This document shows, piece by piece, positions 8,835-57,942 of a DNA stretch of 64,000 nt. The notes under the pieces were generated by a model. It was not told the origin of the DNA, searched no databases, and worked only from the letters and a program-made list of their open reading frames with translations. The translations under genes and the position numbers were made by a program. This stretch comes from Pelagomonas calceolata (lineage: Eukaryota): the NCBI GenBank assembly GCA_918797485.1, contig CAKKNE010000002.1, positions 1,054,001-1,118,000 of the forward strand, given 5' to 3'. Each line of letters starts with the position of its first letter. The first letter of the stretch is position 1.

Positions 8835-10045
8835 ATGAGGCTGCTGCTGCTCATCCTTAGCACCACCACAACACTGGTGCAGCCACGCACCGAGTTCCTC
8901 AAGTGTGCGCATCGACTCAAGGCGTACGGCGCGGCATGGCTCGCGCGCACGGAACTCCTCGCGCGCCAGCCCCTGTCTCAGAACAAGGACGCTCTTGAAT
9001 ACGCCTCGTTCCACATATTAATATACAGCATGAGATTGGGCGCTACGGCACTGAAGGCGGTGGACGACAGCTGGTGGGTGAACCACATCAGTGGCTACGA
9101 ACACGGCGTCTTCAGGATGAAAGGAAAAGAAGCGTCCGACACGAATGTGAACGCCATGGTAGAAATACTCACAAACAAACTGTGTGTACCCAGAACGACG
9201 CCGCCGACGTCGACGTTAGCATTAATACCCTTCTACGGCGGCCTCACGCGGGACGGCGCGCGCGACCGCGGAATCGACGAAGAAACGCCGAACACGGGGA
9301 CGGCCCATAGCGTGTCGAGTGGCGCGACGAAGCTGAAAACGCTGAAAGCCGTGCTTTGTTCGGCTCTATCGTTCTGCAAAGCCGCTCTGGTTGGTGTCCG
9401 TGTGGAAATCAAAATTTTACGGCGCGTTCGTGCTGAATCGTTGCGTCGTCCTCCACGCCATCGACGCGACGCTTGCTCGATGGCGTGGCGATGCTGGTTC
9501 CTCATCGCTCGACGGGGCCAGCACGGCCGTGTCATCGCCGTGAAATGACTTCGTGAAGAATTATTGGGTGCACCCAACGCACTGGTTTGATTTCCACACA
9601 GGTCGGCGTCTGTACCCCCGGAGACTACGAGTCTGTTAATGAATTAATAAGGACGCTGCCCGCCGGTCAAGCGCGGGCCGTGCTGTTGAACTGTGCGAAA
9701 GCACCGGCCTACACCCCATATAAACTTCTACGAATGGTCCAGCGCCACGCCAAGGGAAATTTGAACGCGTCGCAAGTCGCGCCGGCCGCGCGCGGTGTCG
9801 TGCCGTGGCTATCGTCTCTCGAGTACGAATTCGTTCTCTACGACGAGGCGGACCAGACGCTCCACTTCGAAGGCACGGCGTTGCGCGACGTCTTCGACGT
9901 TCTGACCCAGCACCCCGATTACTACGTGGCCCCGCAGCGCTACGAGAAGGGGTGGGGCGGCATCCCGCGGTTCGTTCTTCAGGGGAACTTGTCACGGTCG
10001 ATGAACAAGTGCGAGCGATCCTTGCCGCGGCTGGCGTATACATAA
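8835..10045 (+). CDS. Secreted hypothetical protein; exons 8835-9389, 9602-10045
   Basis: MRLLLLILST signal peptide. The spliced join ...CKAAL|VGVCTPGD... links two listed ORFs. A VLYDEADQ segment may be a glycosyltransferase-like acidic motif (weak). Confidence 0.7.
9390..9601 (+). mobile_element. Introner element intron (212 bp, GT-AG)
   Basis: Inverted ends CCGTGTGGAAATC (9398-9410) / GATTTCCACACAG (9589-9601), duplication GTTGGTGT vs GTCGGCGT. Interior is homologous to 27921-28076. Confidence 0.9.
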
Positions 10046-18625: not shown

Positions 18626-18764
18626 CGGGGGGGAGCGGGAGGGGTACGGGGAACCCTGCGACGTAACTAGCCTCAGCCTCAGCCTCAGTCCTCCTTGCCA
18701 TGTCCTCCGCCCACTAGTCCTCCTAGCACGGTAACAATATATCTCCAAGTCCTAGCACCGTAAC
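18626..18764 (-). repeat. Dispersed intergenic repeat, blocks A then B (B partly duplicated)
   Basis: Block A (18626-18681) GGGGGAGCGGGAGGGGTACGGGGAACCCTGCGACGTAACTAGCCTCAGCCTCA is essentially identical to 36324-36378. Block B CTCCGCCCACTAGTCC...TAGCACCGTAAC matches 36272-36299. Confidence 0.85.
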
Positions 18765-22584: not shown

Positions 22585-22652
22585 CTTGTTGGTTGTGTGT
22601 AAATCGTCGTTAGGTGCTAGGAATGTGAGGCACAGTGTTTACAAAATCACAT

Positions 22653-22676
22653 GCTAGTGTCTTACAAGCCGCTAGC
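22653..22676. promoter_or_regulatory. Motif P copy (reverse)
   Basis: GCTAGTGTCTTACAAGCCGCTAGC, 186 bp upstream of ATG 22862. Confidence 0.6.
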
Positions 22677-22861: not shown

Positions 22862-25800
22862 ATGGAGGCCCTGGTCAACTCCCTCGACACCGCCGCGCTG
22901 TCGCGCGAGCAGCTCGAGGCCGAGGTGACCAGGCTGCGGTCCGAGAACGGCCAGCTGCGGATGGACACCGACGATCCCTTCCAGCTCCTGCGCGATTTAC
23001 CAGAAGACGAACCGCGGCCGTCGCCATCGAAATTTAATAGAGGCAAGGCCAGCGCGTCCGGCGAGCGGCGCGCGAGCACCGCGCGCCGCGAGCCCCTCGG
23101 ACCGCCACCGCCGCGCCGCGGCACGCTCGACATCACGAAGTTCTTCGCCCCCGACGAGGCGGCGCGCTACCGCCGGTGCGCCGACAAGGGCGCCGCCGAG
23201 GCCGCCGTGCGAGCGGCTCGAGCCGCGGAGAAGGAACGCGCGAAGCCGCCCGACGTCATCGGGGAGTGGGCGGCGCGCCACCCCAGCAGCGGTGAGATCG
23301 CCCAATTAGGTGGAGAGATGGTCGCGGCCGTTAGCCGAGGCACGACGTCATTACCCCTGGACCAGCTCGTGCAGATGGGCTTTGAGCGAGGAGCGGCGGC
23401 CGCAACTTTAGTTGCTTGTAGTAATGATGTGGCCCAGGCCGCTACTCTGTTGACTGAGGCTTCTGAAATGGCACGTATAAAAAGGGAGGAGCATCTGCGG
23501 CGCGATAAGACGTGGCGCAAGCGTGGGCAGTACGAAGCCAAACAGGCGGGCCTCGACCACAAGGGCCCGCAGCATGTCGCTGCTCTCGCATTAACACAGC
23601 CGACGATCCCTCTGGCATTGCTGGAGGCGCCGTCCGTGGACTGCGTCTGGGACTTTATTGAACAGACGAATCAGGAGTACGACCGGCTGCACGAGGCTTA
23701 TGAGCGGCAGTTCTGGGGCGAGCGCATGGCTCTGTCGTCGTCAGACTACTCTCCTGAGAATGAGTCTGCTTCAAAGGAGGCCCTGGAGGCCTTCTTACGA
23801 GATTCTGATCGATTAGCGAAGTGCCATTCACTAAAAGAGGGCCTGTTCACGACGGAGAGACAGAAAAGAATACTAGACGGCTTCGTGCGCGTCTTTGATG
23901 CTTACCAGATGGACCCGGCCGCTGTGAGCATGAGAAGCGACTGCGTGCCTCTGGAACGGGCGCTCACGGAGGCCCGCAAAGCATTAATACTTTCGGTCGA
24001 CGGCCCGAAGTCGGCGCCGCAACTACGGACTCTGTTAAGGACGTCTGCCGATGAGAACACGAGGGAACGGGCCTGGAAGGAACTGCGGAAGGTCGGGCCC
24101 TGTATTGCGGACGGATTGTGCGCGTTAGTAAAAAGACGCAATGCGATGGCGCGCGCGCTCGGCTTCGAAGATTTTTACGACTACAAGGTCTCAAAAACTG
24201 AAGGCTTCGGGAAAAAGAAATTGTTCGGCATGTTGGACGCGTTGAGAGACGGCACCACTACTCTCAATGATCGAGCTAGAGCGTCACTATCCGAAGATGA
24301 TAGGAAGCCGTGGAACGTTTCGCGAGCAACTTCTGGAGACGAGGCGCAACTAGACGCCTACTTCCCCTTCGGCAAGGCGCTGGAGGCCTGGGGGCGTTCC
24401 TTCGCCCAGATGGGTATTCGGTATAGGGGGAGTACGATGACCCTAGATCTACTAGAAAGACAAAACAAGTACAGTAATGGCTTCTGCCACTGGCCTCGCT
24501 GTGCTTACGTGCGACGCGACCATTCGTTACGACCCTCGTCCACGAACTTCACGTCGTTGTGTGATCCTCTGCAGACCGGCTCCGGTAGAGTAGCGTTGAA
24601 GACGCGCGTGCCGGTGTGGAAATCAACCAGTGAGTCAGGTTGTCTTCGCGTCGACGGCGTCTGAGCGTCGTCGAGCCCTCCACGCCATCGACGCGACGTG
24701 TTTCCCACTTCTCGCTGAGTGAGAGCGGTCGCGTCTCGCGATCTCGGCACCGCGGCCATGTTTTCGGCTCAAACGCGGACACGACCGCCGAGCGATGCAC
24801 GCAAACCCCGAGAGACCCCGAGCTGAAGCTTGAACTCACGCAGGCTCATGCACGAGGCCGGCCACGCCGCGCACTTCGCGAACGTCGCGCAGGAGTCTCC
24901 TTTATTTGCGCAGGAACGAGCACCAACATCAATAGCCTACGCCGAAACCCAAGCCATGTTCCTGGATTCTCTTGTGAGTGACGCGTCGTGGCGGTGTCGA
25001 TACGCCCTCAATGCGAGTGGTGAGCGCTTACCCTTTGCGTTGCACGAGGCCGATCTACGCTCAAGGCACCCGTACCAAGTGTTTCAGCTGCGAGCGTTGC
25101 TGGCGGTACCCTACTTCGAGAAGGCGCTCTACGAGCACGCTGATTTGACGCCGGAATCCATCATAGCATTGGCCGATCAGGTCGAGCATGACATCGTCGG
25201 CGGCTTGGCCCCGCGACCGCTCCTCAGCGTGCCGCACATTCTGAGGGATGAGTCGTCGTGTTATTACCACGGTTATGTATTGGCCGAGATGGCCGTGCAG
25301 CAAACGCGAAGACACTTTGGGAGTAGTATCGTGGACAACCCGTCGGTCGGCGAAGCGCTCACGCAAGCTTATTGGAGGCCCGGCAACACGGCGGACTTTT
25401 TTGAGTTAGTAGAGAAATTGACGCATGAACCGTTATCTGGTAATGCGTGGATTAGCTCATTGAATAGGGACGTGGATGAATTAGTGGCGAGCGAGCGCCG
25501 AGCGTACGATGACGCTATCGTCACAAGAGAGGACGTCGACCTAGATATGAGGATTCGGATTGTGGACGGCGATGATGTCATAGCGGACTCGGACGAGTGC
25601 GGTTCATTTCTAGCGACGTGTCGAGTCTTCGAGGCGTACCTCGAGAAAAGGTATGGCGATGGTATGGATAGAGGTCATGTTATGAAGGAGACAATTGTAC
25701 AAAGAGAGGAAGTCCCTGTGGAAGAGCCGCGCCGCAAACGAAGTGCAGCAATAGCGTGGGGCCTCGACAGGCCCGACAAGGCGTCGGTCATCATCACGAA

Positions 25801-27283
25801 GGTTGGGTATGACATGGTCGAGTCCTTTCATATCGAAATGACGGAAGGCGACACGCTCGAGCAAGGTGGAAGGATCAAGGGTGAGACCGTTTCAAGTGTA
25901 AAGCCGTTCCGGGCGTATAAGCGACCGAAGCCGACGGATCGGACGGAGTGGACGCGCTGGAATAATGATCAGGAACTTCTGATCGGGCGGGGCGAGGACA
26001 CCCAACCGGAGGAGTGGCGCTTTAAGTTTGCCTGGCGCGGGTGCGACTTTGTGGTGGCGGGGCCGTCCTGTCTCGATCGAAGGAGGAAGAAGTTTCAAGA
26101 GGACAGTGAGAAGAAGCGGCTGAGGGCATTGCCGAAACGCATCAGAACGCTGGGCGACGCCGCTACCGACGCGTTTCTCAACGGCGATATGCAACGGGCC
26201 GCGGACTTGAGGACCGTCCGGTCTTCACTGGTCGAGGAACATGCTTCCCTGAAGGAGAAGCACCCCTCCGACAAGCTCCTCAAAAAACTGAAAGCAATAA
26301 ATGCGCGCATCGACATGGTCTCGAAACCGATTGGGGGCGCCGTCAAGGGTGGGTACGGGGATCAGGCCCGTTTTTGTGGAAGATCTCTCTTACCGTTGTT
26401 CGACGAACGGGACAAGCTCGAGGGCCAGCTCGCGGAGCGCCTCGGGTTAAAAAGAAAGATCCCGGAACTTCGCGACCGAAGTGGACTCGAGGCGAAAATG
26501 GCGTCGGACGGCTGGACGACGGAGGAATCGATGAGGGAAGATAATGGGCGCGTCGACCGCTTCTACCTGTCGCCGAGCGGCGGCAAGAAGCTGCGGTCGA
26601 TCCTGGAGGTCGCGCGCCACGCCTACCCGGAATTTCTCGTGGAGCCGGTCAAGAGCGACGAGGGCGGCCCGGCCCTCTGGCACGGCCGCGCGGGCCCCGT
26701 CGTGCCTTTGGCTGCGCCGGCGGTGCCCCAGGGCGGCCGCGTGCGCAAGCAGCCGCGGCTCCAGACGGGGCCGGCGCCCGCCCAACTGCGCCTCGCGACG
26801 CGCCAGGGCGGCGTCGCCCTGGGGCCGGCCACGGCCCTGCCGGCGTGGCGCGAGGCGGGCCTGCTGCGGACGGCTTCTGGGTATAACCCGCTCGTCCGCC
26901 TGCCCAAGAGCGTGCTGCCGAAGAGCCTCTTCCCTTCCGTAGAACTGCCTCCATCAAAGTGGCGGCCGGGCATGCGCGTCGTCGTTCCCGCGCGGGCCTT
27001 CGGCGAGGAGTGGGCTTTGGAAAACCCGGGCGACTACCCCGGGACGATCGTGGAGCTCGACGAGGAGTGCGCCGCGGGGCGGACGTGGCTCGTCGACTAC
27101 GAGGACGGGCCGACCTCGACGGACGAGGCCTTCTTCGTCGAGGCGCCGTCGCCGATGGAGGAGGACGAGGCCTCCGAGGCGCCGGCCGCGCCGCCGGACC
27201 CCGCGTACCAGGACCTCCCGCTCTGCCGCGACGAGGGGGAGGCGCTGCTGCGCGGCGCGCTCCAGGATTTGATGGAATTGTAA
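22862..27283 (+). CDS. UBA + M3-family zinc oligopeptidase + MBD-like + Tudor-like fusion; exons 22862-24603, 24844-27283
   Basis: UBA LDQLVQMGFERGAAAATLVACSNDVAQAATLL. Spliced ALKT|LMHEAGHAAH (HExxH), AETQAMFLD and YYHGYVLA are M3 peptidase motifs. GWTTE...RVDRFYLSPSGGKKLRSILEVARH is MBD-like and WRPGMRV...YPGTIV...WLVDYEDG is Tudor-like. Confidence 0.8.
24604..24843 (+). mobile_element. Introner element intron (240 bp, GC-AG)
   Basis: CGGTGTGGAAATCAACCAGTGAGTCA start shared with the 46127 element, duplication GCGCGTGC vs GCTCATGC. It contains an in-frame stop and sits just before the HExxH motif. The 3' inverted end is decayed. Confidence 0.85.
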
Positions 27284-27285
27284 TG

Positions 27286-28769
27286 TTATGTGGAGATACT
27301 TAGCATCGCGCTCGCGGGCGCGACCACTCCCTCTCCCCAGCCGACCTCGCCGACGCCCGGCACGCAGGAGTACTGCTTCGCGACGTAGGGCGGCAGCATG
27401 TGCGTCAGGTCCGGCCGCCGCGGATTCACGTCGTAGAACGCAGACCAGCCGCACCGGTAGCGCGGCACGAAGGCGCCGCCCTCTCCGAGGAGCAGCGGCG
27501 CCGGCGCGACCGGAAACGGGGTGCACGGCGGGCACGTGTCGCGGTCGGGCGCGTCCGCGGGGCAGCAGACGGCGGCGACGGTAGTGAGCCGGTCGCGGCG
27601 CTCCCGCGGATAAGCCAGGCACGCCTGGACGTAGCGCACGCCATCTATAGTAGCATCCCAGCCGAAGTGCGTGTGGCCGAAGACGTGCACGTCCGGCTGC
27701 AGGCGCGCGACGCGCCGCTCGAGGAACGTCGAGCCCACGGCCTTCGCGAGCGCCGGCACGAACAGGTACCGCTTCTCAGGAACTAATTCAGGGCGCGGGA
27801 CGAAGTGCGAGAAGGTCACGAGCGGCAGTGAGGGATGTGCCCGGCGCAGCGCGGCGATGGCGCCATCATCGTTGCGCGCGTCCAGGGCCTCCGCGACCGA
27901 GTCATCCGTTTGCGAGAGGCCTGTGCATAAATCAAAATTTCACGGCGCGTTCCACGCCATCGACGCGACGCCTGCTCGATGGCGTGGCGATGCCGGTTCC
28001 CCATTGCTCGACGGAGCCAACACGGCCGCGTCATCGCCGAGAAGTGCACCCGACACACTGGCTGATTTCCACACAGAGACAGACCCGGGAACTTGCAGAG
28101 GTAAAAGTCCGAGATAACCTGGGATGCGGGCGGCAGGCCCGCCCAGCCCGTCACCTCGGGCTCGCGGTCGAAGGCCGCGTGGTGCCAGGCGCAGAGCGGC
28201 GCGACCACACAACCGCCCATGATGGCTGGTGTGCGGCGCACGCCGAGCTCGTCGCACAGAGCGTCGACCGCTCGCAATTTGCTGAGCGAGTCGGCCCAGG
28301 GCTCGCCGCGCGTGACCCAGACGTCGTGGTTGCCCGGGACAAAACTCACGTCAGCGAAGGCGCGCTTGCACAGTTGTAACGTCTCCCTTAGAATCGAGAA
28401 GCGCGACGACACGTCGCCGGCCAAGATGAGGCCGTCCCGTCGCAAGTCCGTCCTTGAACACATACGTTTTAACCAGTCCAGGTTCTCCCCATGGTCCGTG
28501 TGCACGTCGGAGAGGGCCCAGAGCCGCGGCGGCGGCTCCGGACCGGCTTCCGGCGGCGGGGGCGGCGGCAGATCAACTGGCGCGTCGGCGAGGCACTTCG
28601 CCGACGCCCAGCCTTTCAACGGCGCCAGCACTTCCCGCCGCGCGACGCCGTCGTGGAACGCGGACTCGCCGCAAGTCAGCACCGTCCCCTTCGGCAGCTC
28701 GCCTATGACGTCGGACGCCAACGAAGGCCCCGCTCGGACCAGCGCCGCCTTGTTCTTCACGATCAGCAT
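27286..28769 (-). CDS. SH3-like + calcineurin-like metallophosphoesterase; exons 28769-28085, 27920-27286
   Basis: SDVH, LAGD, PGNHD, FSHF and FGHTH motifs. N-terminal VRAG...GELPKG...GWAS is an SH3b-like module. Spliced join FPG|LSQTDDS. Confidence 0.88.
27921..28084 (-). mobile_element. Introner element intron (164 bp, GT-AG)
   Basis: Ends CTGTGTGGAAATC / GATTTATGCACAG, duplication GTCTGTCT vs GCCTCTCG. Same subfamily as 9390-9601 but in the opposite orientation relative to its host gene. Confidence 0.9.
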
Positions 28770-34166: not shown

Positions 34167-34189
34167 GCTAGCGGCATGAAGACACTAGC
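34167..34189. promoter_or_regulatory. Motif P copy
   Basis: GCTAGCGGCATGAAGACACTAGC, midway between divergent ATGs 33947 and 34392. Confidence 0.6.
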
Positions 34190-36242: not shown

Positions 36243-36378
36243 GGCGACGCGCGGTGTCTCCCCCCCAGGGGCTCCGCCCACTAGTCCTAGCACCGTAACC
36301 TCGACTTCTCTCACGGGTGGGCCCGGGGGGAGCGGGAGGGGTACGGGGAACCCTGCGACGTAACTAGCCTCAGCCTCA
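36243..36378 (-). repeat. Dispersed intergenic repeat, blocks B then A
   Basis: 36243-36299 is the reverse complement of 38413-38472 with mismatches, and 36324-36378 matches 18626-18681. Confidence 0.85.
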
Positions 36379-38381: not shown

Positions 38382-38472
38382 CGCGTCGATGGCGTAAAGT
38401 GGACCGCATTCTGTTACGGCGCTAGGGACTAGTGGGCGGCGCCCCCCTGGGGGTGAGACACTGCGCGTCGCC
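38382..38472 (+). repeat. Motif C+B cassette / dispersed repeat
   Basis: CGCGTCGATGGCGT...TCTGTTACGGCGCTAGGGACTAGTGGGCGGCGCCCCCCTGGGGG after stop 38279. Confidence 0.75.
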
Positions 38473-45121: not shown

Positions 45122-47088
45122 CTACCCGGCCTTGATCAGCTTCACGATGCCCCGGACCTTGCCCGCCACGCCGTCGCCGTAGAACAACTCGACCAGCCCC
45201 ATGGCGAAGTCCTGGCCCTTGCCTTTTGAGGGGTAGTGCAGCGGCGGCGGGATCGACGTCCGCGCGAAACCCAATTTATCTTCGCAGCACGACCGTGCTA
45301 AGCAGAGCCCGCGCAGGCCCTCCGGGCCCGCAAATTTATCAAATCCCGACTCGCCGACGCCGCCGAACGGTAGCGATTGCGACAAATAAGTCGTGCCCTC
45401 CAAATCGTTCACCGAGGACATACCCGCCTTGAGGCGCGACGCGACGGCCTTGGCCCGAGCGGTAGAAGCCGCGAAAGCGCACGACGACAACCCAAACGAA
45501 CAGGCGTTGGCTTTCGCAATGGCATCCTCGTCCGACGACGTGGGAGCGAAGACGCACATGATGGGCCCGAAGATCTCCTCCTGCGCGATGCGCGCTGTCG
45601 TCGGCACATCTACTAACACGGTGGGCGGGAAGAACGACGTCCCCACTAACTCCTGAGGCGGGATCTTGCCCTGCGATAAGATTCTCGCGCCCTTGCTCAC
45701 CGCATCATCAACTAAACCCTGCAATCGGTCTCTGGACAGCGACCCCATCGTCACCGCGCCGCAATCCACTTTGACATCCTCATTCGACGCACCCACGACC
45801 AATTGATCGGCTAACGGCTTGATCCTCGATAAAAACCCCTCGTAGACCGTCGACCCCACGAAGAACCGCTCGGGACCGGCGCAATTTTGGCCCATGCTCT
45901 GGAAGACGCCTCTCAGAGCAATCTGCGAGATCCGATCCAAGTCGGACGCAGAGCAGTCGTCGCAGACGACGAAGGGGTCCTTGCCGCCCAACTCCAAGAC
46001 TACCGGCGTTAGCGTTTTCGACGCCGTCTCCATGACTATCTTTCCTACTTCCGGAGAACCCACAAAGATGCACTTGTCAATTCCACCACTGACGAGAGCG
46101 GCACCGGCGGCGCCGTAGCCGTGGACCTGTGTGGAAATCAACCAGTGAGTCACGTGGACTTCGCGAACCTCCACGCCATCGAGCCGACGCGGTCACGGCG
46201 ACAACGTCGCGTCGATGGCCTGGAAACTCCACGCCATCGAGCAGACGCAGCTACGGAGACAGCGTGGGCCGCCCGAAATTTGATTTCCACACCGCTCTGA
46301 ACGATCTGCACAAGATCCTCGGGCGCGCCCACGGCCTTCAGGCATTCTCTGAGAGCCGCGCCGAAGTACCCAGCAGCGGACCAGGACGCGTAGGGCGACA
46401 CTTTCACCACAATCCCGTTCCCCGCCATCAGCGCCGCACTCACGGGATTGAAGACGTTGTGGAACGGGTAGTTCCAGGGCACGATCGCGCCGATGACGCC
46501 GAGCGGCCGGTACTCGACCCAGACGTTCTTCGTGAACCACACGAGACTTCCCGTGGCCCGCTTCTCATTCCGTAGTACAGATTCGCCGTTCGCCGCGAGC
46601 CATTTCAGTTTTTCGCAGGTCACGAGCACTTCCCCGAAAATTGCATCAGTGACGGTCTTGCCACTGTCCCTCACGGCCACCTTCGCGATCGTAGCTTGAT
46701 TTTCTACTACAAATCTAAGCATGGTCTTCATGAGTTGTCTCCTTTGTGAGAAAGAAGATTTAGCCCAGACCTCCTGCGCGGCGCGGCATTTTTTAATTTT
46801 GAGCTCGACGGTGTCCTTCGTGTCGGCTCGGACTTCGCCCAGGTAGGTGAGCGTACTCGGGTCCCAACACTTTACCACGGAGAAATCCGGCTTCGCCTTC
46901 TCGTGCTTCAATAAGTCAAATTTCGTCTCGGGCGCCGGCGGCTCGGCGAGCTCCTCGCTCACTACGACCTGCTTGCCGCCGATTGGTAGTAGGATGCTGG
47001 AGAACTGGAGGGCGTAGTAGGTGGCCACGGCCGCGGCGGCGTAGTAGAGGAGCTGCCCGATATCCACGGTGATCTCGTGGGAGTACAT
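45122..47088 (-). CDS. Membrane-anchored aldehyde dehydrogenase (ALDH22/Msc7-like); exons 47088-46303, 46126-45122
   Basis: IVPWNYPFHN, FVGS, LELGGKD, GQNC, EEIFGP and PFGG motifs, with an N-terminal TM. Join LVQI|VHGYG. Confidence 0.93.
46127..46302 (-). mobile_element. Introner element intron (176 bp, GT-AG)
   Basis: CGGTGTGGAAATC / GATTTCCACACAG ends, duplication GTTCAGAG vs GTCCACGG. Shares the GCCCGAAATTTGATT end with 21315 (GCCCAAAATTTGATT in 21960). Confidence 0.9.
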
Positions 47089-49646: not shown

Positions 49647-49814
49647 TGAGTCGCGATGCACGCACAGTCCAGGCTCGAGCACTCAAGTAGCGTATGTCTG
49701 ATGCCAGGACCGAGCTGTGTGTGCGGTGCGAAAAAGGACTTGATAATAGAGAACCCGAACTCACCCTAGGGGGTCCGCCTCGGTTGAAGCGTCTGCGGTG
49801 CTGCCTGTCTGCTG

Positions 49815-49837
49815 GCTAGCGGCTGTAAGACACTAGC
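49815..49837. promoter_or_regulatory. Motif P copy
   Basis: GCTAGCGGCTGTAAGACACTAGC between divergent ATGs 49646 and 50057. Confidence 0.6.
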
Positions 49838-50056
49838 AAACCACAAACCCGTGATTAAGGCATATGGTTCGTCTATTAGCTATGGGACATGCTGCCCGAG
49901 GGCTGGGAACGGGCGACTTTTCAGGGCGAGCTGGATACAGGCTTGTTGTTACCCAAGCTGTGCTGGGAGTGGGAGCGTTGTTGTCGTCCGAGCGTTCAGC
50001 AAGCTGCCCCGTGGTCCCTGTGGTCTGTCCTCGGGCGCTGGTGGGCGGGCAGCCCC

Positions 50057-53000
50057 ATGGCCCACGGCCCCTGGGGATCATTGTCTCTGGTGTTTGCTGC
50101 TCTTAGTGTTTGCGGCGCCCTGGGTGGATCCTGCCTCTTCGACTTCGAAGACACCGCCATCGACAGCTGCCCCAGCGGGTGGACCTGCACGGGCGACGCG
50201 CGCGTCGTCTCCCGATACACGTGCGTGTCCGGTTGCGGGACGCCGCTGCCCAACGCCCAGGGCGAGCAGTACTTTTCGATTGGCGGGGACGGCGACACGG
50301 GCACGGCGCAGTCGCCGACGTTCGAACTCCCGTCCGACGCCCAAAGCCTTGAATTCCTGCGGTGCGGCGGCGCGGATTCCCCCTCCGGCGTTTCGGTTCA
50401 CCGCGAGAGCGGCAGCGTGGTCTGCTCAAGCAGTCGCGGCGACGACACGGATTCGTTCTTCTGGGATTCCTGCGACGTCTCCAGCGCCGACGGCGAGAGA
50501 GTCTACGTGCGGATCGTCGACACTCAATCTTCCTCTTGGGGAAAGGTCTTCGTGGACAACATTCGCCTCGACGGCGGCGGCGATGGGTGCGATGATAGCG
50601 GCGATTCTTCGGGTTCAAACTGCGACCGTAGCCTATGCTCGAGCGTCGCCGACGACTGCTGCGCGCCGCTGAGCATTGGCGAGGCGGCGACGTGCCGGAA
50701 CGGCTACGTGGCGCAGCGGACCGGAAACGGGTGCTTTGGGTACGGCGAGGGCGATTACACGTGCTGCTCGACGTCCGCTAGTGATTCAAACTGCGCAGCG
50801 GCGAGCACCGGCGCTTGCCTCGAGGGCGGCGGTGTCGACAACGACTGCTGCGCTACTTGCGGCAACGGGGGCTGCGCGTCTGGTTATACCTATGCTGGTC
50901 AAGTTGTCATCGACAGCGGGACGCTCTCTTCGACGTACCCTGACTTCTACCCTCATTGTGGCACGATGTACTGCGGCAACACGTGCTGCGTGCCGTCGAG
51001 TGGTGGTTCGGAGCCAGACGAGGGCGAGGCCGCGCCCTGCAATGGAGGCCACGATGACGCGGAGCGGATACTAAGCTGTATCAAACAATTCTCCGCCTCG
51101 GAGTGGCTCGGCTGCACCTCAGATGGGAGATACGAGTGCCACTGCAGCAATGACGATGGGGTCAACTACTGCTGCGGTAGCCAGAACCAAGCTGAGGCCA
51201 TCGCGATATGGGAACAATGCCTCGGGGAAGGTGGCTCCTCTACTACTGGATTTACGATCACAAGCTCAAACGTGCATTGGGACGAATGTCCCGGCGAGTG
51301 TGCCGCCATTGGGGGCACATTCGCTTGCATCAGCGACGAGTCGCAGAATGGGCAAGCCTTGGCGGCGTTCGGGGGCAGTTGTCCCGACGGAGCGGACGAC
51401 TGCGGGGCATGGATCGCGGTGAACGATAAGGCGTCGGAGGGCAACTGGATCTGCACGGCCGACGGCAGCACACAAACCTATCAACCTTGGTCTGCCATTG
51501 GTAGTGAACCCAACGGCGGCTCCGGCGAGAATTGCGCGAATATGTGGGGCCCAAACTCGGGAAGAAACGACGGGGCGTGGAACGACTACGGCTGTACCGA
51601 TGCTCGCATGCCATGCATATGTAGGGGCGGGGGCGATGACGAGGACTACTCCTTAACGTACTACGATGACGGGTCGCGCCAGACGTACGAGTGGATGAAG
51701 AGCAGCTGCGCAACAAAGGGCAAGCGCCTGTGCACGTACGGCGAGATTTGCCCCAATGGAGGCCCGCACCAGGCCCCGTACGGCGGACAGCAAGCAAGCA
51801 CTGATATGTGGGCGCCAATAACTCCCGATGCGGGCGAGGGCGGCAGCAGGAACCAGGATTGGGTTCAGATCGGGACGCGTGACGGTGGTATGTGCAACAA
51901 ACACAGCTCGTTTTACGGTGGCGTGCATCCTGACGAGTGCTGCTGTGGAGACTGGTGCAATACGAACGTGCAACAGGTGGCTAAGCGCATATATGCGTGC
52001 TGTGACGGGGAAGGTGGCTCCTCTACTACTACGACCGGTACGAACTGCCGAAGCGACATCTGCACGGACTACGCAGAGGACTGCTGCGCGCCGGACGACG
52101 AGCCCCGCGGGTGCAGCCTCGCGGGCTACGAGGTGCAAGATGACTGGGTGGGCTCGTCGGGCTGGCCATCATGCGTCAGCACGTACGGCCAGGAGTCGGT
52201 GTATCAATGCTGCTCGACGTCCTCGACTGGCTCCTCCGATGCGCTCTTCGTCGCCGGGCCCTCGGGCGGCGACTATCGACGGCGGCGGCGGCGACGACAT
52301 CCGGGCGACGTGTCAGTGCGCCTCGGAATACGAGTGGTGGGACGACCGCCGGCTCTCCGCCGTCGACGAGCCGCGGCGTCTGGGTCACTGCTGCGACTAC
52401 GGTGCGTACTGCTCCTGCATGGAGTCGGAGCTCGGCGCCGGCTGCACTGCGCCCGACTGCGGCGACTGGGACGAGGACGAGGACTGCGGCTCCGACGCAA
52501 CCAGTGGCTCGGACGCAGACGTGACGTGCTCCTTGGTAATCAACGACGAAATTACCGCCGTGTACGTCGACGGGCAGGACGTCACGGACTCTCTCTGCGG
52601 CGAGTGGCCGGCGACGCTCAGATTCTCCAGCGCGGCGAGTCTCTTCGCAATCAGCGGCTACGACAATCAGGGCGGATGCCAGTACGGCGGATTCGCGATG
52701 CGCTGCTCCACGGCGGACGGAACCGGGCCGTGGCACGGCCTGACGGCCGACACGCAGAACTGGCGCGGGACCAACTGGGTCTCTGGGAGCAGTTGGACGC
52801 AACTCGGCTTCGACGACAGTGCCTGGCAGACTCCCTCCGTGGGTGGCGAACCGCAGTACGGGTCCGAACTCGTCGGGGGCGGCGACACGATTTGCGTCGA
52901 GGGCGATTTCTACTTCCGAAGAGAGGTTGATCACCCGACGCCCCTCGAATCGCCCTTCCTCGTCACCGGCGACCTCACCTTCGAAGGCATGACGTACGAA

Positions 53001-53906
53001 GCGGCGCTGGACAACACCAACGTCTTCCTCGCCGCCGTCGCCGATCTCTGCGGCGTGGCCGCGTCCGCCGTGACCGTGGAAATCTCGAGGGCCCGCCGCC
53101 GTCGTCGCCTCGCGGAGGGAATCGTGGTGACGTACACCGTGGGCGTCGCGTCCGCGAACGAAGCTCAGACGGTCACGAGCGCGATTTCGAGCAGCTCGAC
53201 AGCAGACGTCGACGCCGCAATCAGCAAAGCCGCGACGAACGCGGGCGTCGACGACGATTTCGACGGCGTCACGACGACCAACGTGGGTACGCCCACGGCG
53301 ACGGCGTCCGACGACGACGGTGGGTCCTCCAGCGGTAAAGACGACGGGCCGGATGCTGCGTCGGCGGCGACGATCATAGCGTCCGTCGCGGCGGCTATGT
53401 GTGTGGTCTTGATTGGAGTCGTCGGTCTTCTTTACTGGAAGACGCAGCAGGTCCAGGGCCGACCGGTGAGGCCCGTGGGCGCGGTCGCGGTGGAGATGGC
53501 CACGTACGGACAGACGATGGTCGCCCCCAGCTACGTCCTCAAGGCGAACAGCGACGAGGTCTGGCGGGACCCCGCCCCCCGGGCGTCGGCGCCGCCCGGC
53601 CGAAGCTTTTGCATCGACTGCGGTGCGGCGATCCAGGGCCGGTTCTGTGGCGCATGCGGGCGGAATCAGCCCGCGGCGGCTCAGCCCGTGGCGGAACAGC
53701 CACCCTTTGTGGCGCCGACGCTTTTCCGGCGGCAGCCAATGGACAATAATCAAGGCGCGCCGCACAGCCTTCCCGTAGAGATCATCAGCGCCGCCGGACA
53801 AGGGCCGCCGGCCGGCGCTCGACCCGTCCCGCAGGGGTCCGTGGTACAAGGCTCCGTGGTGCAGGGGCCCGCCGTGCAGGAACCCGCCGAGCAGGGGTAC
53901 CTTTAG
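50057..53906 (+). CDS. Cys-rich C-type-lectin type-I membrane receptor, copy 1 (frame break near 52276)
   Basis: Signal peptide MAHGPWGSLSLVFAALSVCGA, beta-sandwich-like FDFE...VFVDNIRL module, CTL with EPN/WND, RRRRRL stalk, TM and cytoplasmic CxxC-x8-CxxC zinc ribbon. Encoded by two overlapping ORFs. Confidence 0.7.
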
Positions 53907-54096
53907 GTCCGTTCGCTTTGTCGAAGAAGAATGATCACTCCCCCTCCCCGCGGCAGATGGTGTTGCCGGCGTCCGCGTATATACCTTTTCTGACAATTGA
54001 CCCAGAGGGGGGCCAACTTAGATCTCGCGAGCAGCCTGTAGCACAGTCCAGGACTCAAGCACTTAAGACTTTTTTGGCAAAACTTGGCTTGGCATG

Positions 54097-54118
54097 GCTA
54101 GCGGCGTAAGACACTAGC
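54097..54118. promoter_or_regulatory. Motif P copy
   Basis: GCTAGCGGCGTAAGACACTAGC, part of the duplicated 5' region. Confidence 0.6.
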
Positions 54119-54361
54119 AAGCAAAATCTGGGGCAAGGCGTATGGTTCGTCTATTAGCTATGGGACGTCGTCCGGAGGGCTTGGGACGAGCGATTTTTTA
54201 GCGCGGATATACAGGCTGATAACACTGAGGAGCTTGGCTTGGGCAACAAGCGCCAAGGAGTAGAGCTTTGTTTATCGTCCGAGTGGTTCGAGAAGCTGCT
54301 TCGTGGTCCCTGTGGTCTGTCCTCGTGCGCTGGTGGGCGCTGGGATCGCTGGGGCAGCCCC

Positions 54362-57300
54362 ATGGCCCACGGCCCCTGGGGATCATTGTCTCTGGTGTTT
54401 GCTGCTCTTAGTGTTTGCGGCGCTATTGACTCTCTCGGCGCACGGCCATCCGTGTCGTGGAACGCCGCGCGCGCAGAGTGCGAGTCCCGAGGCCAGGGAC
54501 TCTGCTCGTCCGAAGAGCTCTGTCCGACCGGTGCGCCGTTCGATGGCGGCGTTGACAGCACGGACACGTGGGTGCCCGTGTCGGACGGCAGCGACGAGTG
54601 GCTTCAGTACGGGAAATGGGCGAACTCGTGGCAGCCAGGACCACTCTGCAGTCTGCACAGCGTCCAGTACGCGCCCGACCCGCATCCCTGCCACACCCAT
54701 CCAGATCCGGCGCGGTACCCAGACGCGGCGAGCTGCGGCCACTCCTTCTTGTACTGCTGTAGCGGCGACGGCAACGATTCCGGGAGCTGCGCCGACGGTC
54801 TCTGCTACACGCTCTACTCGGGCGAGGACTCGCCATCGGAAGCTGAGGACAGATGCGAAGACCGCGGCGGGCACCTCGCCAAGGTGACTACGGCCGGGCA
54901 GGTCGCGACGGTGAAGGACGTGCTTAAGAATGTGCCCGACGGTAACTGCGTCCGCTTCGGCGCGATCAAGGAGGCTGGGTCCTGGCGGTTACTGCGATCG
55001 ACGTTATCGAGAACAATGGCGGGGAATACTGTAGCTGTTACTGGGTAGCGGACGACAACGTCTACGACGCGCCTTGCCACGGAGGGTGGGGCCAGGGCGA
55101 CTACTACCTCTGCGCGACAAGCGAGGGCGATGGCGAGGACTACTCCTTAACGTACTACGATGACGGGTCGGGCCAGACCTACGAGTGGATGAAGAGCAGC
55201 TGCGCAACAAAGGGCAAGCGCCTGTGCACGTACGGCGAGCTTTGCCCCAATGGAGGCCCGCACCAGGCCCCGTACGGCGGACAGCAAGCAAGCACGGATA
55301 TGTGGGCGCCAATAACTCCCGATGCGGGCGAGGGCGGCAGCACGAACCAGGATTGGGTTCAGATCGGGACGCGTGACGGTGGTATGTGCAACAAACACAG
55401 CTCATTTTACGGTGGCGTGCATGCTGACGAGTGCTGCTGTGGAGACTGGTGCAATACGAACGTGCAACAGGAATGGAAGCGCATATATGCGTGCTGTGAC
55501 GGGGAAGGTGGCTCCTCTACTACTACGACCGGCACGAACTGCCGAAGCGACATCTGCACGGACATTGCGAACGACTGTTGTGCGCCGGGCGGCGAGGCCC
55601 GCGGGTGCAGTATTACGGGCTACGAGGTCCAGCCGGATCCGACGGGGACCTCGGGCTACGGGCCTTGCGTCAGCACGTACGGCCAGGAGTCGGTGTATCA
55701 ATGCTGCGCGACGTCCTCGACGTCTGCTGGCAGCGGCTCCTTCGTGTACGTCGATCAAGCGAAGAGCTTCGACGACGCGCGCGCGTACTGCCGCGCGAAC
55801 TATCACGACCTCGCGTCGATCCACAGCTCCAGCGAGAATGCGGCAGTAGCGGCGCTTTGTCCCGGTGAATCATGCTGGATCGGGGGCTCCGACGCGGCCC
55901 AAGAGGGCACGTGGACCTGGTCGGACGGCACGGCGTGGGACTACGACAACTGGGAAAGCGGAGAGCCCAACAACTGGGGAGGCGACGAGCCCTACACCGT
56001 GATCTACGACTCAGGACGATGGAACGACGAGAGCCGCTATGGTACTTACCCATTCGTGTGCGCGACTACATTTACGATCACAAGCTCAAACGTGCATTGG
56101 GACGAATGTCCCGGCGAGTGTGCCGCCATCGGGGGCACATTCGCTTGCATCGACGACGAGTCGCAGAATGGGCAAGCCTTGGCGGCGTTTGGGGGCAGTT
56201 GTCCCGACGGAGCGGACGACTGCGGGGCATGGATCGCGGTGAACGATAAGGCGTCGGAGGGCAACTGGATCTGCACGGCCGACGGCAGCACACAAACCTA
56301 TCAACCTTGGTCTGCCATTGGTAGTGAACCCAACGGCGGCTCCGGCGAGAATTGCGCGAATATGTGGGGCCCAAACTCGGGAAGAAACGACGGGGCGTGG
56401 AACGACTACGGCTGTACCGGTGCTCGCATGCCATGCATCTGTAGGGGCGGGGGCGGTGGCTCCTCTGAGGATCTCTTCGTCGCTGGGCCCTCGGGGGGCA
56501 ATTACTACGACGCGACGGCCTACTGCTCAAGCATAGGCGCATCGATCGCCACCATCTATAGCGCGACCGAGAATGAGCTGGCGCGCCAAGCGTGCGGCGG
56601 CTCGTCGTGCTGGATAGGCCTCGAAGAAGTCGGCGGCAGCGCGTCGACGCCCAAGGCGAGCCAGACGTGGCGGTGGATGGATGGATCGACAGCCAGTTAC
56701 ACGAACTGGGATGATTGGGAACCGAATAATCACGATGGGAACGACGAGAGGAACGCCATGATGAATTGTTGCGGCACAGACGGCGTTGACGCGTCGGGCA
56801 TGTGGCACGACGCGCCGTACAACTACGACGAACCGCGACCCCTCTGCCGCACCGATGATTGCGGCCCATCCTCCGGCGGCTGCGATCCGATCTACAATTT
56901 CGCCGGCGCCACGCGGACGTGCACCTCGTCGAACTACCCCGAAAACTGCATCGTGGTGGTCGAGAACTCGCAGCATGCCGACTGCAATGCGTGGTGCGCT
57001 GCCGCCGGGTCTTGGTGTATTAATGGATGGGACTCCCACGGCGGCAGCTGCGATAACATAGACCAAACGGACGACACTTGGCCCCAGGGCTGCGGCGGCG
57101 ACAACCTTTTTCACGACGGAATATGCATGTGCGCTCCAGTCGGCGGCACGTCGTCCCAAACGGACGGCGGGCCGTGCACGCCGCAGCGCGCCGACAACCT
57201 CGATGACGACGGGCCGGACGCGGCGTCGGCGGCGACGATCATCGCGTGCGTCGCGGCGGCGATGTGTGCGGTCTTGATTGGAGTCGTCGGCTTTCTTTAC

Positions 57301-57771
57301 TGGAAGATGCAGCAGGTCCAGGGCCGGCCGGTGCGGCCCGTGGGCCAGGCGATCGCGGTGGAGATGGCCACGTACGGCCAGACGATGGCCGCCCCCAGCT
57401 ACGTCCTCAAGGCGGCGTCGGCGCCGCCCGGCCGAAGCTTTTGCGTCGACTGCGGTGCGGCGATCCAGGGCCGGTTCTGCGGCGCGTGCGGGCGGAATCA
57501 GCCCGCGGGGGCTCAGCCCGCGGCGGAGCCACCGTTCGTGGCGCCGACGCCGAACCTTTTCCGGCGGCAGCCAATGGACAATAACCAAGGCGCGCCGCAG
57601 AGCCTTCCCGTAGAGATCATCAGCGCCGCCGGACAAGGGCCGCCGGCCGGCGCTCGACCCGTCCCGCAGGGGTCCGTGATACAAGGCTCCGTGATACAAG
57701 GCTCCGTGGTGCCGGGGTCCGTCGTGCAGGGGTCCGCCGTGCAGGAATCCGCCGAGCAGGGGTACATTTAG
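54362..57771 (+). CDS. Cys-rich multi-C-type-lectin type-I membrane receptor, copy 2 (frame break near 54988)
   Basis: Same signal peptide, several CTL domains (WIG, WxWxDG, EPNN, WND/WHD), and the same TM, zinc ribbon and QGSV tail. The frame changes inside a CTL domain (GSWR / VIENNGGEYC). Confidence 0.72.
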
Positions 57772-57942
57772 GTCCTTTGTCGAAGAAGAAGGACCAAGCA
57801 GATATTTACTGCGCCGTCGAATCGCCAGTCCCTTTCACCCCCCCTCCCCGCGGCAGATGGTGTTGCCGGCGTCCGCGTATATACCTTTTCTGATTAATTA
57901 CCTAGAGGCCCGGGGGGCCCAACATAGTTCATAAGACAATCG

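What the first reader, a model, noticed from the sequence alone, without database searches (positions are those of the whole stretch)
49815..57930. Tandem lectin receptors with constant ends and shuffled ectodomain cassettes
Seen: both genes share the promoter region, signal peptide, TM, cytoplasmic zinc ribbon and 3' flank, but their ectodomains are mosaics. Module X (CTL, 51251-51635 ~ 56071-56455) precedes module Y (51631-52227 ~ 55125-55721) in copy 1 and follows it in copy 2, with private modules between. Module borders fall in Gly/Ser linkers sharing GGTGGCTCCTC-like sequence (51224, 52007, 52228, 55501, 56452). No introns are evident at the borders. EPN/WND motifs suggest Ca-dependent mannose/glucose-type binding. 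Inference: a diversifying surface-receptor family recombining through linker microhomology, perhaps for virus, bacteria or partner recognition.
Basis: partly seen in the sequence, partly recalled or inferred. Interest (0 to 1): 0.75.

Follow-up and report, generated by a model that had tools for sequence, protein, structure and literature searches.

The report
Shuffled surface-lectin genes in ocean alga
In the abundant ocean alga Pelagomonas calceolata, these two neighbouring genes belong to a family of predicted cell-surface proteins whose lectin-type and cysteine-rich blocks occur in many different orders in cultured and wild samples, likely reshuffled by DNA recombination in short shared linkers; both copies here carry a reading-frame break, and what the proteins bind is untested.

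Summary
The mosaic is real. The window is Pelagomonas calceolata. The two tandem genes share a 62/62-nt signal peptide and a 95% identical transmembrane/zinc-ribbon tail, and carry modules X and Y (98%) in opposite order; independent short-read contigs confirm the main junctions. Public proteins and two wild contigs show a much larger family: the same modules, 80-100% identical, behind different signal peptides, beside up to five different neighbours, and on four tail types; the copy-1 position holds a different ectodomain in a wild contig. 30 of 39 homology breakpoints fall in Gly/Ser/Thr or acidic linkers, not in one motif. X, W and Z are C-type lectin domains; only X and W keep all calcium-site residues. 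N-glycosylation sites are strongly avoided (1 seen, 14.7 expected). pN/pS is below 1 everywhere, so positive selection is not shown. Best reading: intron-free ectopic recombination at shared linkers, filtered by selection, diversifies an algal surface-recognition family. Ligand and function are inferred only.

The parts
49813..50056 (+). 5' region shared with copy 2 (54095-54361); begins with a short motif that is dispersed in the genome
   Evidence: many contigs with loose ends at 49815/49839
50057..53906 (+). Copy 1: SP1-A1-C1-C2-D-X-Y1-Y2-(Z stub)//(half F)-G-S-tail T1; frame change near 52276
   Evidence: NCBI model P0004 bridges the break with an intron 52199-52316
50057..50119 (+). Predicted signal peptide SP1, 62/62 nt identical to copy 2 (54362-54424)
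   Evidence: signal-peptide nature read from the sequence, no predictor run
50129..50572 (+). Module A1, no Pfam family
50615..50995 (+). Small Cys-rich modules C1 (50615-50773) and C2 (50786-50995)
51026..51250 (+). Module D and the GEGGSSTT linker; 25 nt identical to the linker behind Y1
   Evidence: P0043 has D-linker-Y2
51251..51625 (+). Module X, C-type lectin domain with EPN, E and WND
   Evidence: tetranectin, E 1.6e-11
51641..52006 (+). Module Y1, DUF7495; fold unresolved, weak hints of a lectin/Link-like fold
52040..52219 (+). Module Y2, small Cys-rich module; 98.5% to the copy-2-type wild locus L001, 87.8% to copy 2 of the window
52241..52295 (+). 12-codon stub of lectin Z joined out of frame to a short linker and the second half of module F
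52296..53300 (+). Modules F (half, 52296-52460), G (52512-52925) and stalk S (52947-53300, with an Arg run)
53352..53906 (+). Tail T1 of copy 1: predicted TM 53373-53438, CxxC-x8-CxxC zinc ribbon 53610-53657, QGS repeats
   Evidence: (DZR E 0.003, under cut-off)
54362..57771 (+). Copy 2: SP1-A2-B2//Y1-Y2'-W-X-Z-E-tail T1; 19-bp deletion in B2
54443..54763 (+). Module A2, DUF7495-like
54785..55119 (+). Module B2, degenerate lectin-like domain without EPN/WND; 19-bp deletion at about 54984 between GGCG repeats
   Evidence: deletion present with 0 gaps in contigs of X1, X2, X3, X5, X10; intact in L001, P0005, P0130, P0131
55135..55713 (+). Y1 (55135-55500) and diverged Y2' (55534-55713)
55738..56064 (+). 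Module W, C-type lectin domain with EPN, E, WND; lacks the inner Cys pair; absent from L001, present in L002
56071..56445 (+). Second copy of module X; absent from L001
56473..56850 (+). Module Z, C-type lectin domain, EPN or EPQ and WHD or WYD among versions; variable in the binding-loop half
56878..57138 (+). Module E, Cys-rich, one version in 9 of 9 sequences
57217..57771 (+). Tail T1 of copy 2: predicted TM 57238-57303, zinc ribbon 57442-57489
57772..57908 (+). 3' flank shared with 53907-54008

Best explanation
These two genes are frame-broken members of a Pelagomonas family of predicted single-pass surface proteins whose ectodomain modules occur in many orders and are likely exchanged by ectopic DNA recombination in short linkers shared between genes, the intact products likely serving glycan-based recognition or adhesion at the cell surface. 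Shown: the module mosaic; near-identical modules beside different neighbours, signal peptides and tails; different ectodomains at the same genomic position; breakpoints concentrated in linkers; no introns at module borders in the window, L001 or L002; out-of-frame products. Inferred: a break in one family gene is repaired off another family gene, using a shared linker, a shared module or a few bases of microhomology, which inserts, deletes or swaps whole modules; the process is blind to frame, and selection in the wild keeps joins that spare the domains and the frame. Copy 1 looks like a recent, heavily rearranged dead end (its SP1-A1, D-X, X-Y1, F-G and Z-stub joins were seen in no other protein); copy 2 is the L001 arrangement with W-X added and a later 19-bp lesion. 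Inferred function: Ca-dependent sugar binding by X and W, spacing and other contacts by the Cys-rich modules, and signalling or trafficking through the zinc-ribbon tail; biotic partners (viruses, bacteria, grazers, mates) are the likely selective force, none tested.
For: Neighbour counts at 80% identity or more in 117 of 145 sequences (clusters merged by eye where two were the same module): C1 has 4 upstream (9 cases) and 5 downstream (10 cases) neighbours, W 4 upstream (5), X 3 downstream (7), Z 3 upstream (10) and 3 downstream (8), F 4 downstream (9), S 5 upstream (15), SP1 3 downstream (12), tail T1 4 upstream (22). L001 has the copy-2 flank, an open 894-aa frame and no W-X; L002 has the copy-1 flank (84% over 978 nt) with another signal peptide and ectodomain ending in W. 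P0105 is 98-100% identical to W-X-Z-E-T1 behind a different 5' half; P0120 on the same 6.14-Mb contig has Z and G-S on tail T3. RNA reads join a third X copy to Y2 (47, 47 and 10 reads in X21, X22, X23), as in P0055 (69 members). 30 of 39 breakpoints within 3 aa of a linker against 12-16% of positions. Shared linkers at joins: D and Y1 both reach Y2 through GEGGSSTTT; X-Z and L001's B2-Y1 share 10 nt at the point where copy 1 goes X-Y1; the 19-bp deletion lies between GGCG repeats. X, W, Z match solved C-type lectin domains. N-x-S/T sequons 1 against 14.7 expected in the window's ectodomains, 22 against 18.6 in 15 other ORFs, which fits selection on a protein that passes through the secretory pathway.
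Against: No ligand, location or phenotype was tested. pN/pS is 0-0.95 in all 14 comparisons. The excess of change in Z's binding half drops from p=4.5e-6 (4 versions) to p=0.03 (7 versions); X shows none (p=0.46), W is borderline (p=0.07). The linker test is partly circular (I drew the module borders, partly from the same data; some breakpoints are counted from both copies) and 9 of 39 fall inside modules. Several joins never vary (A2-B2 4 of 4, B2-Y1 5 of 5, Y1-Y2 4 of 4, E-T1 7 of 7), so shuffling is not free. Most relatives come from short-read metagenome assemblies, whose whole architectures may be chimeric, and L002 may be a diverged lineage rather than an allele. Both local copies are broken, which also fits plain decay. 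DNA was available for only four genes, so microhomology was read at base level for few joins.
Confidence: 0.7

Rival explanations
1. Neutral birth and death: repeat-rich tandem genes recombine and decay; the variety of orders is a by-product with no benefit from diversity itself.
For: Both window copies are frame-broken; pN/pS below 1 throughout; copy-1-specific sequence has very low RNA depth.
Against: Wild versions are long open frames with clusters of 40, 49 and 69 members; breakpoints spare domains; sequons are purged; purifying selection acts on modules. These show that the family functions, not that its diversity is selected.
Confidence: 0.2
2. The same recombination serves evasion rather than detection: the proteins form a variable coat or adhesin that viruses or grazers attach to, and new module orders or loss of function remove the attachment site.
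For: Null-like alleles at both loci in cultures; avoidance of N-glycan sites would also deny handles to viral or grazer lectins (inference); a pelagophyte giant virus packages lectin/glucanase proteins and some resistant host strains resist attachment (PMC10720644, passages; Aureococcus, not Pelagomonas).
Against: Intact calcium-site residues in X and W and a conserved cytoplasmic zinc ribbon suggest active binding and a downstream role. No virus data for Pelagomonas were found.
Confidence: 0.2
3. Assembly artefact: near-identical repeats were mis-joined in the window and in metagenome contigs.
For: No listed contig bridges 52276, Y2'-W or W-X; P0003, P0062, P0072 and P0075 look frameshifted by error; the best DNA holder may be the window's own sample.
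Against: X-Y1, X-Z, B2-Y1 and the inter-gene spacer are bridged with 0 differences in runs of several studies; X has about twice single-copy depth in X3 (329.8 against 157-189); W-X recurs in P0040 and P0105 and Y2-W in P0088; a join between two different modules needs reads that hold it.
Confidence: 0.04
4. Exon shuffling or splicing as in brown-algal ROCO genes: modules move as exons, and the frame breaks are hidden by introns (NCBI's model P0004 splices 52199-52316).
For: The NCBI model has a GT-AG intron that restores the frame; copy-1 RNA depth is too low to exclude it.
Against: L001 and L002 are single open frames across 6 and 5 modules; no splice joint was listed in three raw RNA runs or one RNA-guess contig set; X10 carries the 19-bp deletion unspliced; the modelled intron would cut the last two Cys of Y2.
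Confidence: 0.05

Closest known systems
Plasmodium falciparum var / PfEMP1 (PMC4270465, abstract and outline seen)
   Same: Single-pass surface protein with a constant tail and a modular ectodomain diversified by ectopic recombination inside one long exon.
   Different: There crossovers are error-free, in frame and preserve domain architecture; here module order and number change, crossovers sit in linkers, and out-of-frame joins occur. No sequence relation; mitotic rate and expression switching not tested here.
Sea-urchin SpTransformer (Sp185/333) (PMC5491942, abstract and outline seen)
   Same: Clustered genes, mosaic of shared elements in one exon, family size varying among individuals, frequent truncated products.
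   Different: SpTrf elements keep patterns within a disordered protein; here the units are folded disulfide-rich and C-type lectin domains with TM and zinc ribbon. Immune induction is shown there, untested here.
Brown-algal ROCO LRR exon shuffling (PMC11378527, abstract and outline seen)
   Same: Stramenopile candidate recognition proteins diversified by shuffling repeated units, with constant core.
   Different: ROCO units are one exon each, intracellular, alike (LRR) and under diversifying selection; here units are unlike, extracellular and intron-free, and pN/pS is below 1.
Animal multi-CTLD receptors (mannose receptor, DEC-205/LY75, PLA2R, Endo180)
   Same: Best solved-structure matches of W and Z; type I topology with tandem C-type lectin domains, only some with full calcium sites.
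   Different: No fibronectin-II or ricin domain in Pfam scans; fixed architecture there, variable here; zinc-ribbon tail here.
DUF7495 (PF24325)
   Same: Y1 and A2 pass the curated cut-off; look-alikes in haptophytes and diatoms.
   Different: Function unknown; here it is one mobile module among many.

Membership tests
C-type lectin domain | Sequence match to the CTLD fold | tested here: met
   X E 1.6e-11, Z E 1.3e-10, W E 1.1e-22; Lectin_C 3 stretches in copy 2. X alone gave no Pfam hit at E 0.05.
C-type lectin domain | Five calcium-site residues E-P-N, E, W-N-D (motif recalled, not from a call) in X and W | tested here: met
   Read from the sequences; W lacks the inner Cys pair.
C-type lectin domain | The same five residues in Z and B2 | tested here: not met
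   Z has WHD or WYD and EPN or EPQ; B2 has neither motif.
C-type lectin domain | Ca-dependent mannose/glucose binding | not testable with these tools
   Needs a binding assay.
C-type lectin domain | Y1 (DUF7495) has the CTLD/Link fold | tested here: inconclusive
   No PDB sequence hit; model pLDDT 46.7; best Foldseek rows are Link modules and CTLDs at E 0.25 or worse.
Mannose receptor family | Ricin-type Cys-rich domain plus fibronectin-II domain before the CTLDs | tested here: not met
   Not found in Pfam scans of 8 and 17 proteins.
Brown-algal exon-shuffled receptors (ROCO) | One module per exon, introns at borders | tested here: not met
   Open frames across modules in L001, L002 and the window; no splice joints listed.
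Brown-algal exon-shuffled receptors (ROCO) | Diversifying selection on the shuffled units | tested here: inconclusive
   pN/pS below 1 per module; loop concentration in Z only, p 0.03; too few DNA sequences for a site test.
var-like antigenic variation (works-like test) | Constant tail with recombined modular ectodomain | tested here: met
var-like antigenic variation (works-like test) | Crossovers in frame and architecture preserved | tested here: not met
   Order and number of modules vary; copy 1 holds an out-of-frame join.
var-like antigenic variation (works-like test) | High mitotic recombination rate and one-at-a-time expression | not testable with these tools
   Needs clone trees and single-cell RNA.
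SpTransformer | Gly-rich, RGD, His-rich disordered protein of elements | tested here: not met
   Folded Cys-rich and CTLD modules with TM.

The most novel reading that the evidence does not exclude
Pelagomonas keeps a genome-wide pool of interchangeable receptor cassettes with deliberately shared linkers and rearranges them at a high rate during clonal growth, so that a population of single cells carries a combinatorial, immune-like repertoire of surface lectin receptors, free of N-glycans so as not to bind themselves; broken copies such as these two are the waste and the cassette store of that system.
Probability: 0.15. Interest if true: 0.92.

Novelty: new variant of a known kind. Interest (0 to 1): 0.68.

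Why it matters
[quoted passage not shown] A polymorphic, intron-free, combinatorial surface family gives named loci, modules and junction markers that can be followed in cultures and ocean metagenomes, and makes the question testable: do arrangements or null alleles track virus susceptibility, grazing or mating? It would also add a free-living picoeukaryote to the short list of organisms that diversify surface proteins by cassette recombination, by a route (linker crossovers, no exons) unlike the brown-algal case. A practical point: single-strain annotation hides the family, because breaks are patched with introns and most members are unnamed.

Tried and rejected
No whole genome was held, so family size per genome could not be counted. 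Idea of a spliced last exon in the shared 3' flank: no such joint in X21-X23 or X10; dropped. L003 matched only through the zinc ribbon and is unrelated; dropped. Of 26 hits in the representative search, I read 12; the rest were not read as sequences but were in the module map, where most show only low-complexity or zinc-ribbon matches. Viral or phage origin of modules: no match for X-Z DNA in phages or Y1 in viral contigs. Atlas: no usable hit for Y2; Y1 gave unnamed clusters and DUF7495 at a recognition value under the tool's threshold. Y1 model and fold search were low-confidence. Positive selection by pN/pS: not found; non-synonymous change between copy 2 and L001 is higher in B2+Z than in other parts (24.5/535 against 19/1267 sites, p 0.0003) but synonymous change trends the same way (12.5/170 against 14/407, p 0.075), which fits patchwork conversion from diverged paralogs as well as selection. 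Sequon control: in a second set of three ectodomains N-x-S/T was 0 against 16.6-18.8, but Q-x-S/T was also low (3 against 10.2), so specificity is clean only in the 19-module set. Earlier findings of this scan: none in three look-ups. No complex prediction was run.
Full report
Setting. No genome was held for the window. A protein search with the copy-2 tail returned the database model of copy 1 (P0004), labelled Pelagomonas calceolata, on a 6.14-Mb contig. The flanks are ordinary genes: a 2OG-Fe(II) oxygenase and an ankyrin protein upstream, a fructosamine kinase downstream.

What the sequence shows. Copy 1 reads SP1-A1-C1-C2-D-X-Y1-Y2-(Z stub)//(half F)-G-S-T1 and copy 2 reads SP1-A2-B2//Y1-Y2'-W-X-Z-E-T1 (letters are my labels). 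In copy 2 a 19-bp deletion between two GGCG repeats breaks module B2 (against L001); it is present without gaps in contigs of five of the five contig runs laid (X1, X2, X3, X5, X10), and intact versions exist in L001, P0005, P0130 and P0131. In copy 1 twelve codons of lectin Z are joined out of frame to the second half of module F; relatives show F with a longer N-terminal part. The database model bridges this with a GT-AG intron, 52199-52316; no read joint for it was listed, but copy-1 RNA depth was low, and no listed contig bridges 52276, so that break rests on the window's assembly alone. Unspliced, the products would be 957 aa without TM and 228 aa. One preprint reports the species as haploid (10.1101/2024.10.30.620910, passages), so a second intact allele is unlikely (inference).

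Is it an assembly artefact? Contigs with 0 differences bridge X-Y1 (X5), X-Z (X10), B2-Y1 (five runs) and the spacer between the genes (X1, X2, X3, X5); D-X is covered by an X1 contig that reaches 29 letters into X, just under the tool's 31-letter rule, and by linker-X joints in X3, X5, X10. X has about double depth in X3. Y2'-W and W-X are not bridged in what was listed (610 and 218 records not shown) but recur in other proteins. The four DNA runs come from three studies; one may be the window's own sample.

The family. A metagenome scan with the tail gave 3 loci from 152 candidate stretches, 2 relevant. L001 has the copy-2 upstream flank and one open 894-aa frame, SP1-A2-B2-Y1-Y2-Z-E-T1, without W-X; its Y1 is closer to copy 2 (99.5%) but its Y2 is closer to copy 1 (98.5% against 81.9%). 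L002 has the copy-1 upstream flank (84% over 978 nt, so possibly a diverged lineage) with another signal peptide, other modules and W (93%) before T1. Three homolog searches, one representative search and one cluster look-up gave 139 proteins; with six window and locus frames, 145 sequences were tiled against 24 modules; 117 remained after dropping 4 duplicates of the window or L001 and those without a 70% match. Examples: SP1-C1-lectin-A1-C1 (P0034), SP1-C1-Y2-Z (P0050), D-Y2 (P0043), A1-I-F (P0036), X-Y2-Z on a fourth tail without zinc ribbon (P0055, 69 members), and W-X-Z-E-T1 at 98-100% behind a different 5' half (P0105). P0120, on the same contig as the window, carries Z and G-S on tail T3. 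After merging clusters that were the same module, C1 has 4 upstream and 5 downstream neighbours, W 4 upstream, X 3 downstream, Z 3 and 3, F 4 downstream, S 5 upstream, SP1 3 downstream, T1 4 upstream. Some joins never vary (A2-B2 4 of 4, B2-Y1 5 of 5, Y1-Y2 4 of 4, E-T1 7 of 7). I count joins, not whole architectures, because short-read assemblies can be chimeric across shared modules. Raw RNA of sample S5 holds a third X copy joined to Y2 (47, 47 and 10 reads in X21, X22, X23), not listed in the four DNA contig runs; loose read ends match P0006 and P0007, so those types occur in cultures too.

Mechanism. Of 39 points where homology to a relative ends while both proteins go on, 30 lie within 3 aa of a linker, against 12-16% of positions (binomial p 6e-17 at 16%). 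The test is partly circular and some points are counted twice; of the 9 inside modules several look like alignment overrun or frameshifted database proteins. The linkers are shared between contexts: D and Y1 both lead into Y2 through the same Gly/Ser/Thr linker (this explains the 25-nt match at 51223 and 52006); F and G overlap in an acidic linker; C1, C2 and Y2 start with like residues up to their first Cys; X-Z and L001's B2-Y1 share 10 nt where copy 1 passes from X to Y1. No introns lie at borders in the window, L001 or L002. I infer homology-guided repair between family genes, blind to frame, with selection keeping joins that spare domains; the out-of-frame join in copy 1 and the GGCG-bounded deletion in copy 2 are the expected failures. 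Whether it happens in mitosis or meiosis is open; the species has 18 of 23 meiosis genes (PMC9481584, passages).

Function. X, W and Z match solved C-type lectin domains. By the recalled five-residue rule, X and W keep a full mannose-type calcium site; Z and B2 do not. Y1 and A2 are DUF7495; a low-confidence model gave only weak Link/CTLD rows. Tails T1-T3 end in or carry a CxxC-x8-CxxC zinc ribbon. N-x-S/T sequons are nearly absent: 1 against 14.7 expected in the window's ectodomains, 1 against 10.5-11.4 in 19 distinct modules with control patterns near expectation, 22 against 18.6 in 15 other ORFs; in a second set Q-x-S/T was also low. This supports passage through the secretory pathway under selection; avoiding self-binding by the mannose-type domains is my inference. 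Selection for diversity is not shown: pN/pS is 0-0.95 in 14 of 14 comparisons; variation in Z gathers in the binding half (17 of 46 against 2 of 63 columns with 4 versions; 17 of 47 against 14 of 79 with 7 versions, p 0.03) but not in X. Copy-2-specific contigs in X10 had depth 47-80 against 6-7 for copy 1; the tool warns that this is a poor measure and that X10 is only guessed to be RNA.

Relation to known systems. It works like var genes (constant tail, recombined ectodomain; PMC4270465, abstract and outline) and SpTransformer (mosaic elements in clustered genes; PMC5491942, abstract and outline), but fails their defining features, and differs from brown-algal ROCO shuffling, which is exon-based (PMC11378527, abstract and outline). 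I found no description of this family: searches for the species with 'lectin' (2 papers), for domain shuffling of algal lectin receptors, for phytoplankton resistance with lectins, for pelagophyte lectins (10 papers) and for modular mosaic surface families in microalgae (2 papers) were seen as listings only and none is on this; the two genome papers have 0 hits for 'lectin' and 'shuffl' in their main text. Their supplements were not read and subscription papers are not in the library, so a mention may exist.

Verdict. The two local copies are probably non-functional. Interest 0.68.

Noticed in passing
P0120 (same contig as the window), P0006, P0124: A family member carries a whole choline-transporter-like domain (PF04515) between its TM and its zinc ribbon, in one open frame of up to 1843 aa, with different N-termini in the three versions.
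   Followed up: partly
window 49815-49837, 34167-34189, also near 388-419, 22652-22676, 54098-54126: A short motif of about 23 bp lies upstream of several unrelated genes; 2 matches against 0.00 expected for the exact pattern, further variants by BLAST, and many contigs from elsewhere in the genome match only there. Possibly a common promoter element or small mobile element.
   Followed up: partly
window 50057-53340 and 54362-57216: N-glycosylation sequons are almost absent from the ectodomains of the whole family.
   Followed up: yes
window 53088-53115 (stalk S): An Arg run that fits a furin-type site sits in the stalk and varies in length among relatives; the ectodomain may be shed. Resemblance of S to a SEA-type stalk is recalled, not tested.
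   Followed up: no
window 56262-56849 and 54204-54790: Reads from paralogs of Z and A2 map on the opposite strand at high depth in X21-X23, suggesting antisense transcription over some family members elsewhere in the genome.
   Followed up: no
P0058: A Logan protein has Y1 at 75% with another ectodomain, TM and a zinc-ribbon tail, hinting at the same design in another organism.
   Followed up: no
window 9452-9547 / 27951-28046, 18628-18681 / 36325-36378, 36243-36299 / 38413-38472: Short dispersed repeats of 54-96 bp; the first pair lies inside predicted ORFs and may be introner-type insertions, which are reported for this species (PMC9481584, passage).
   Followed up: no
window 45122-47088 and 22862-27283: An aldehyde dehydrogenase and a probable peptidase each appear as two consecutive ORFs, probably split by an intron (peptidase label read from the sequence, no call).
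   Followed up: no
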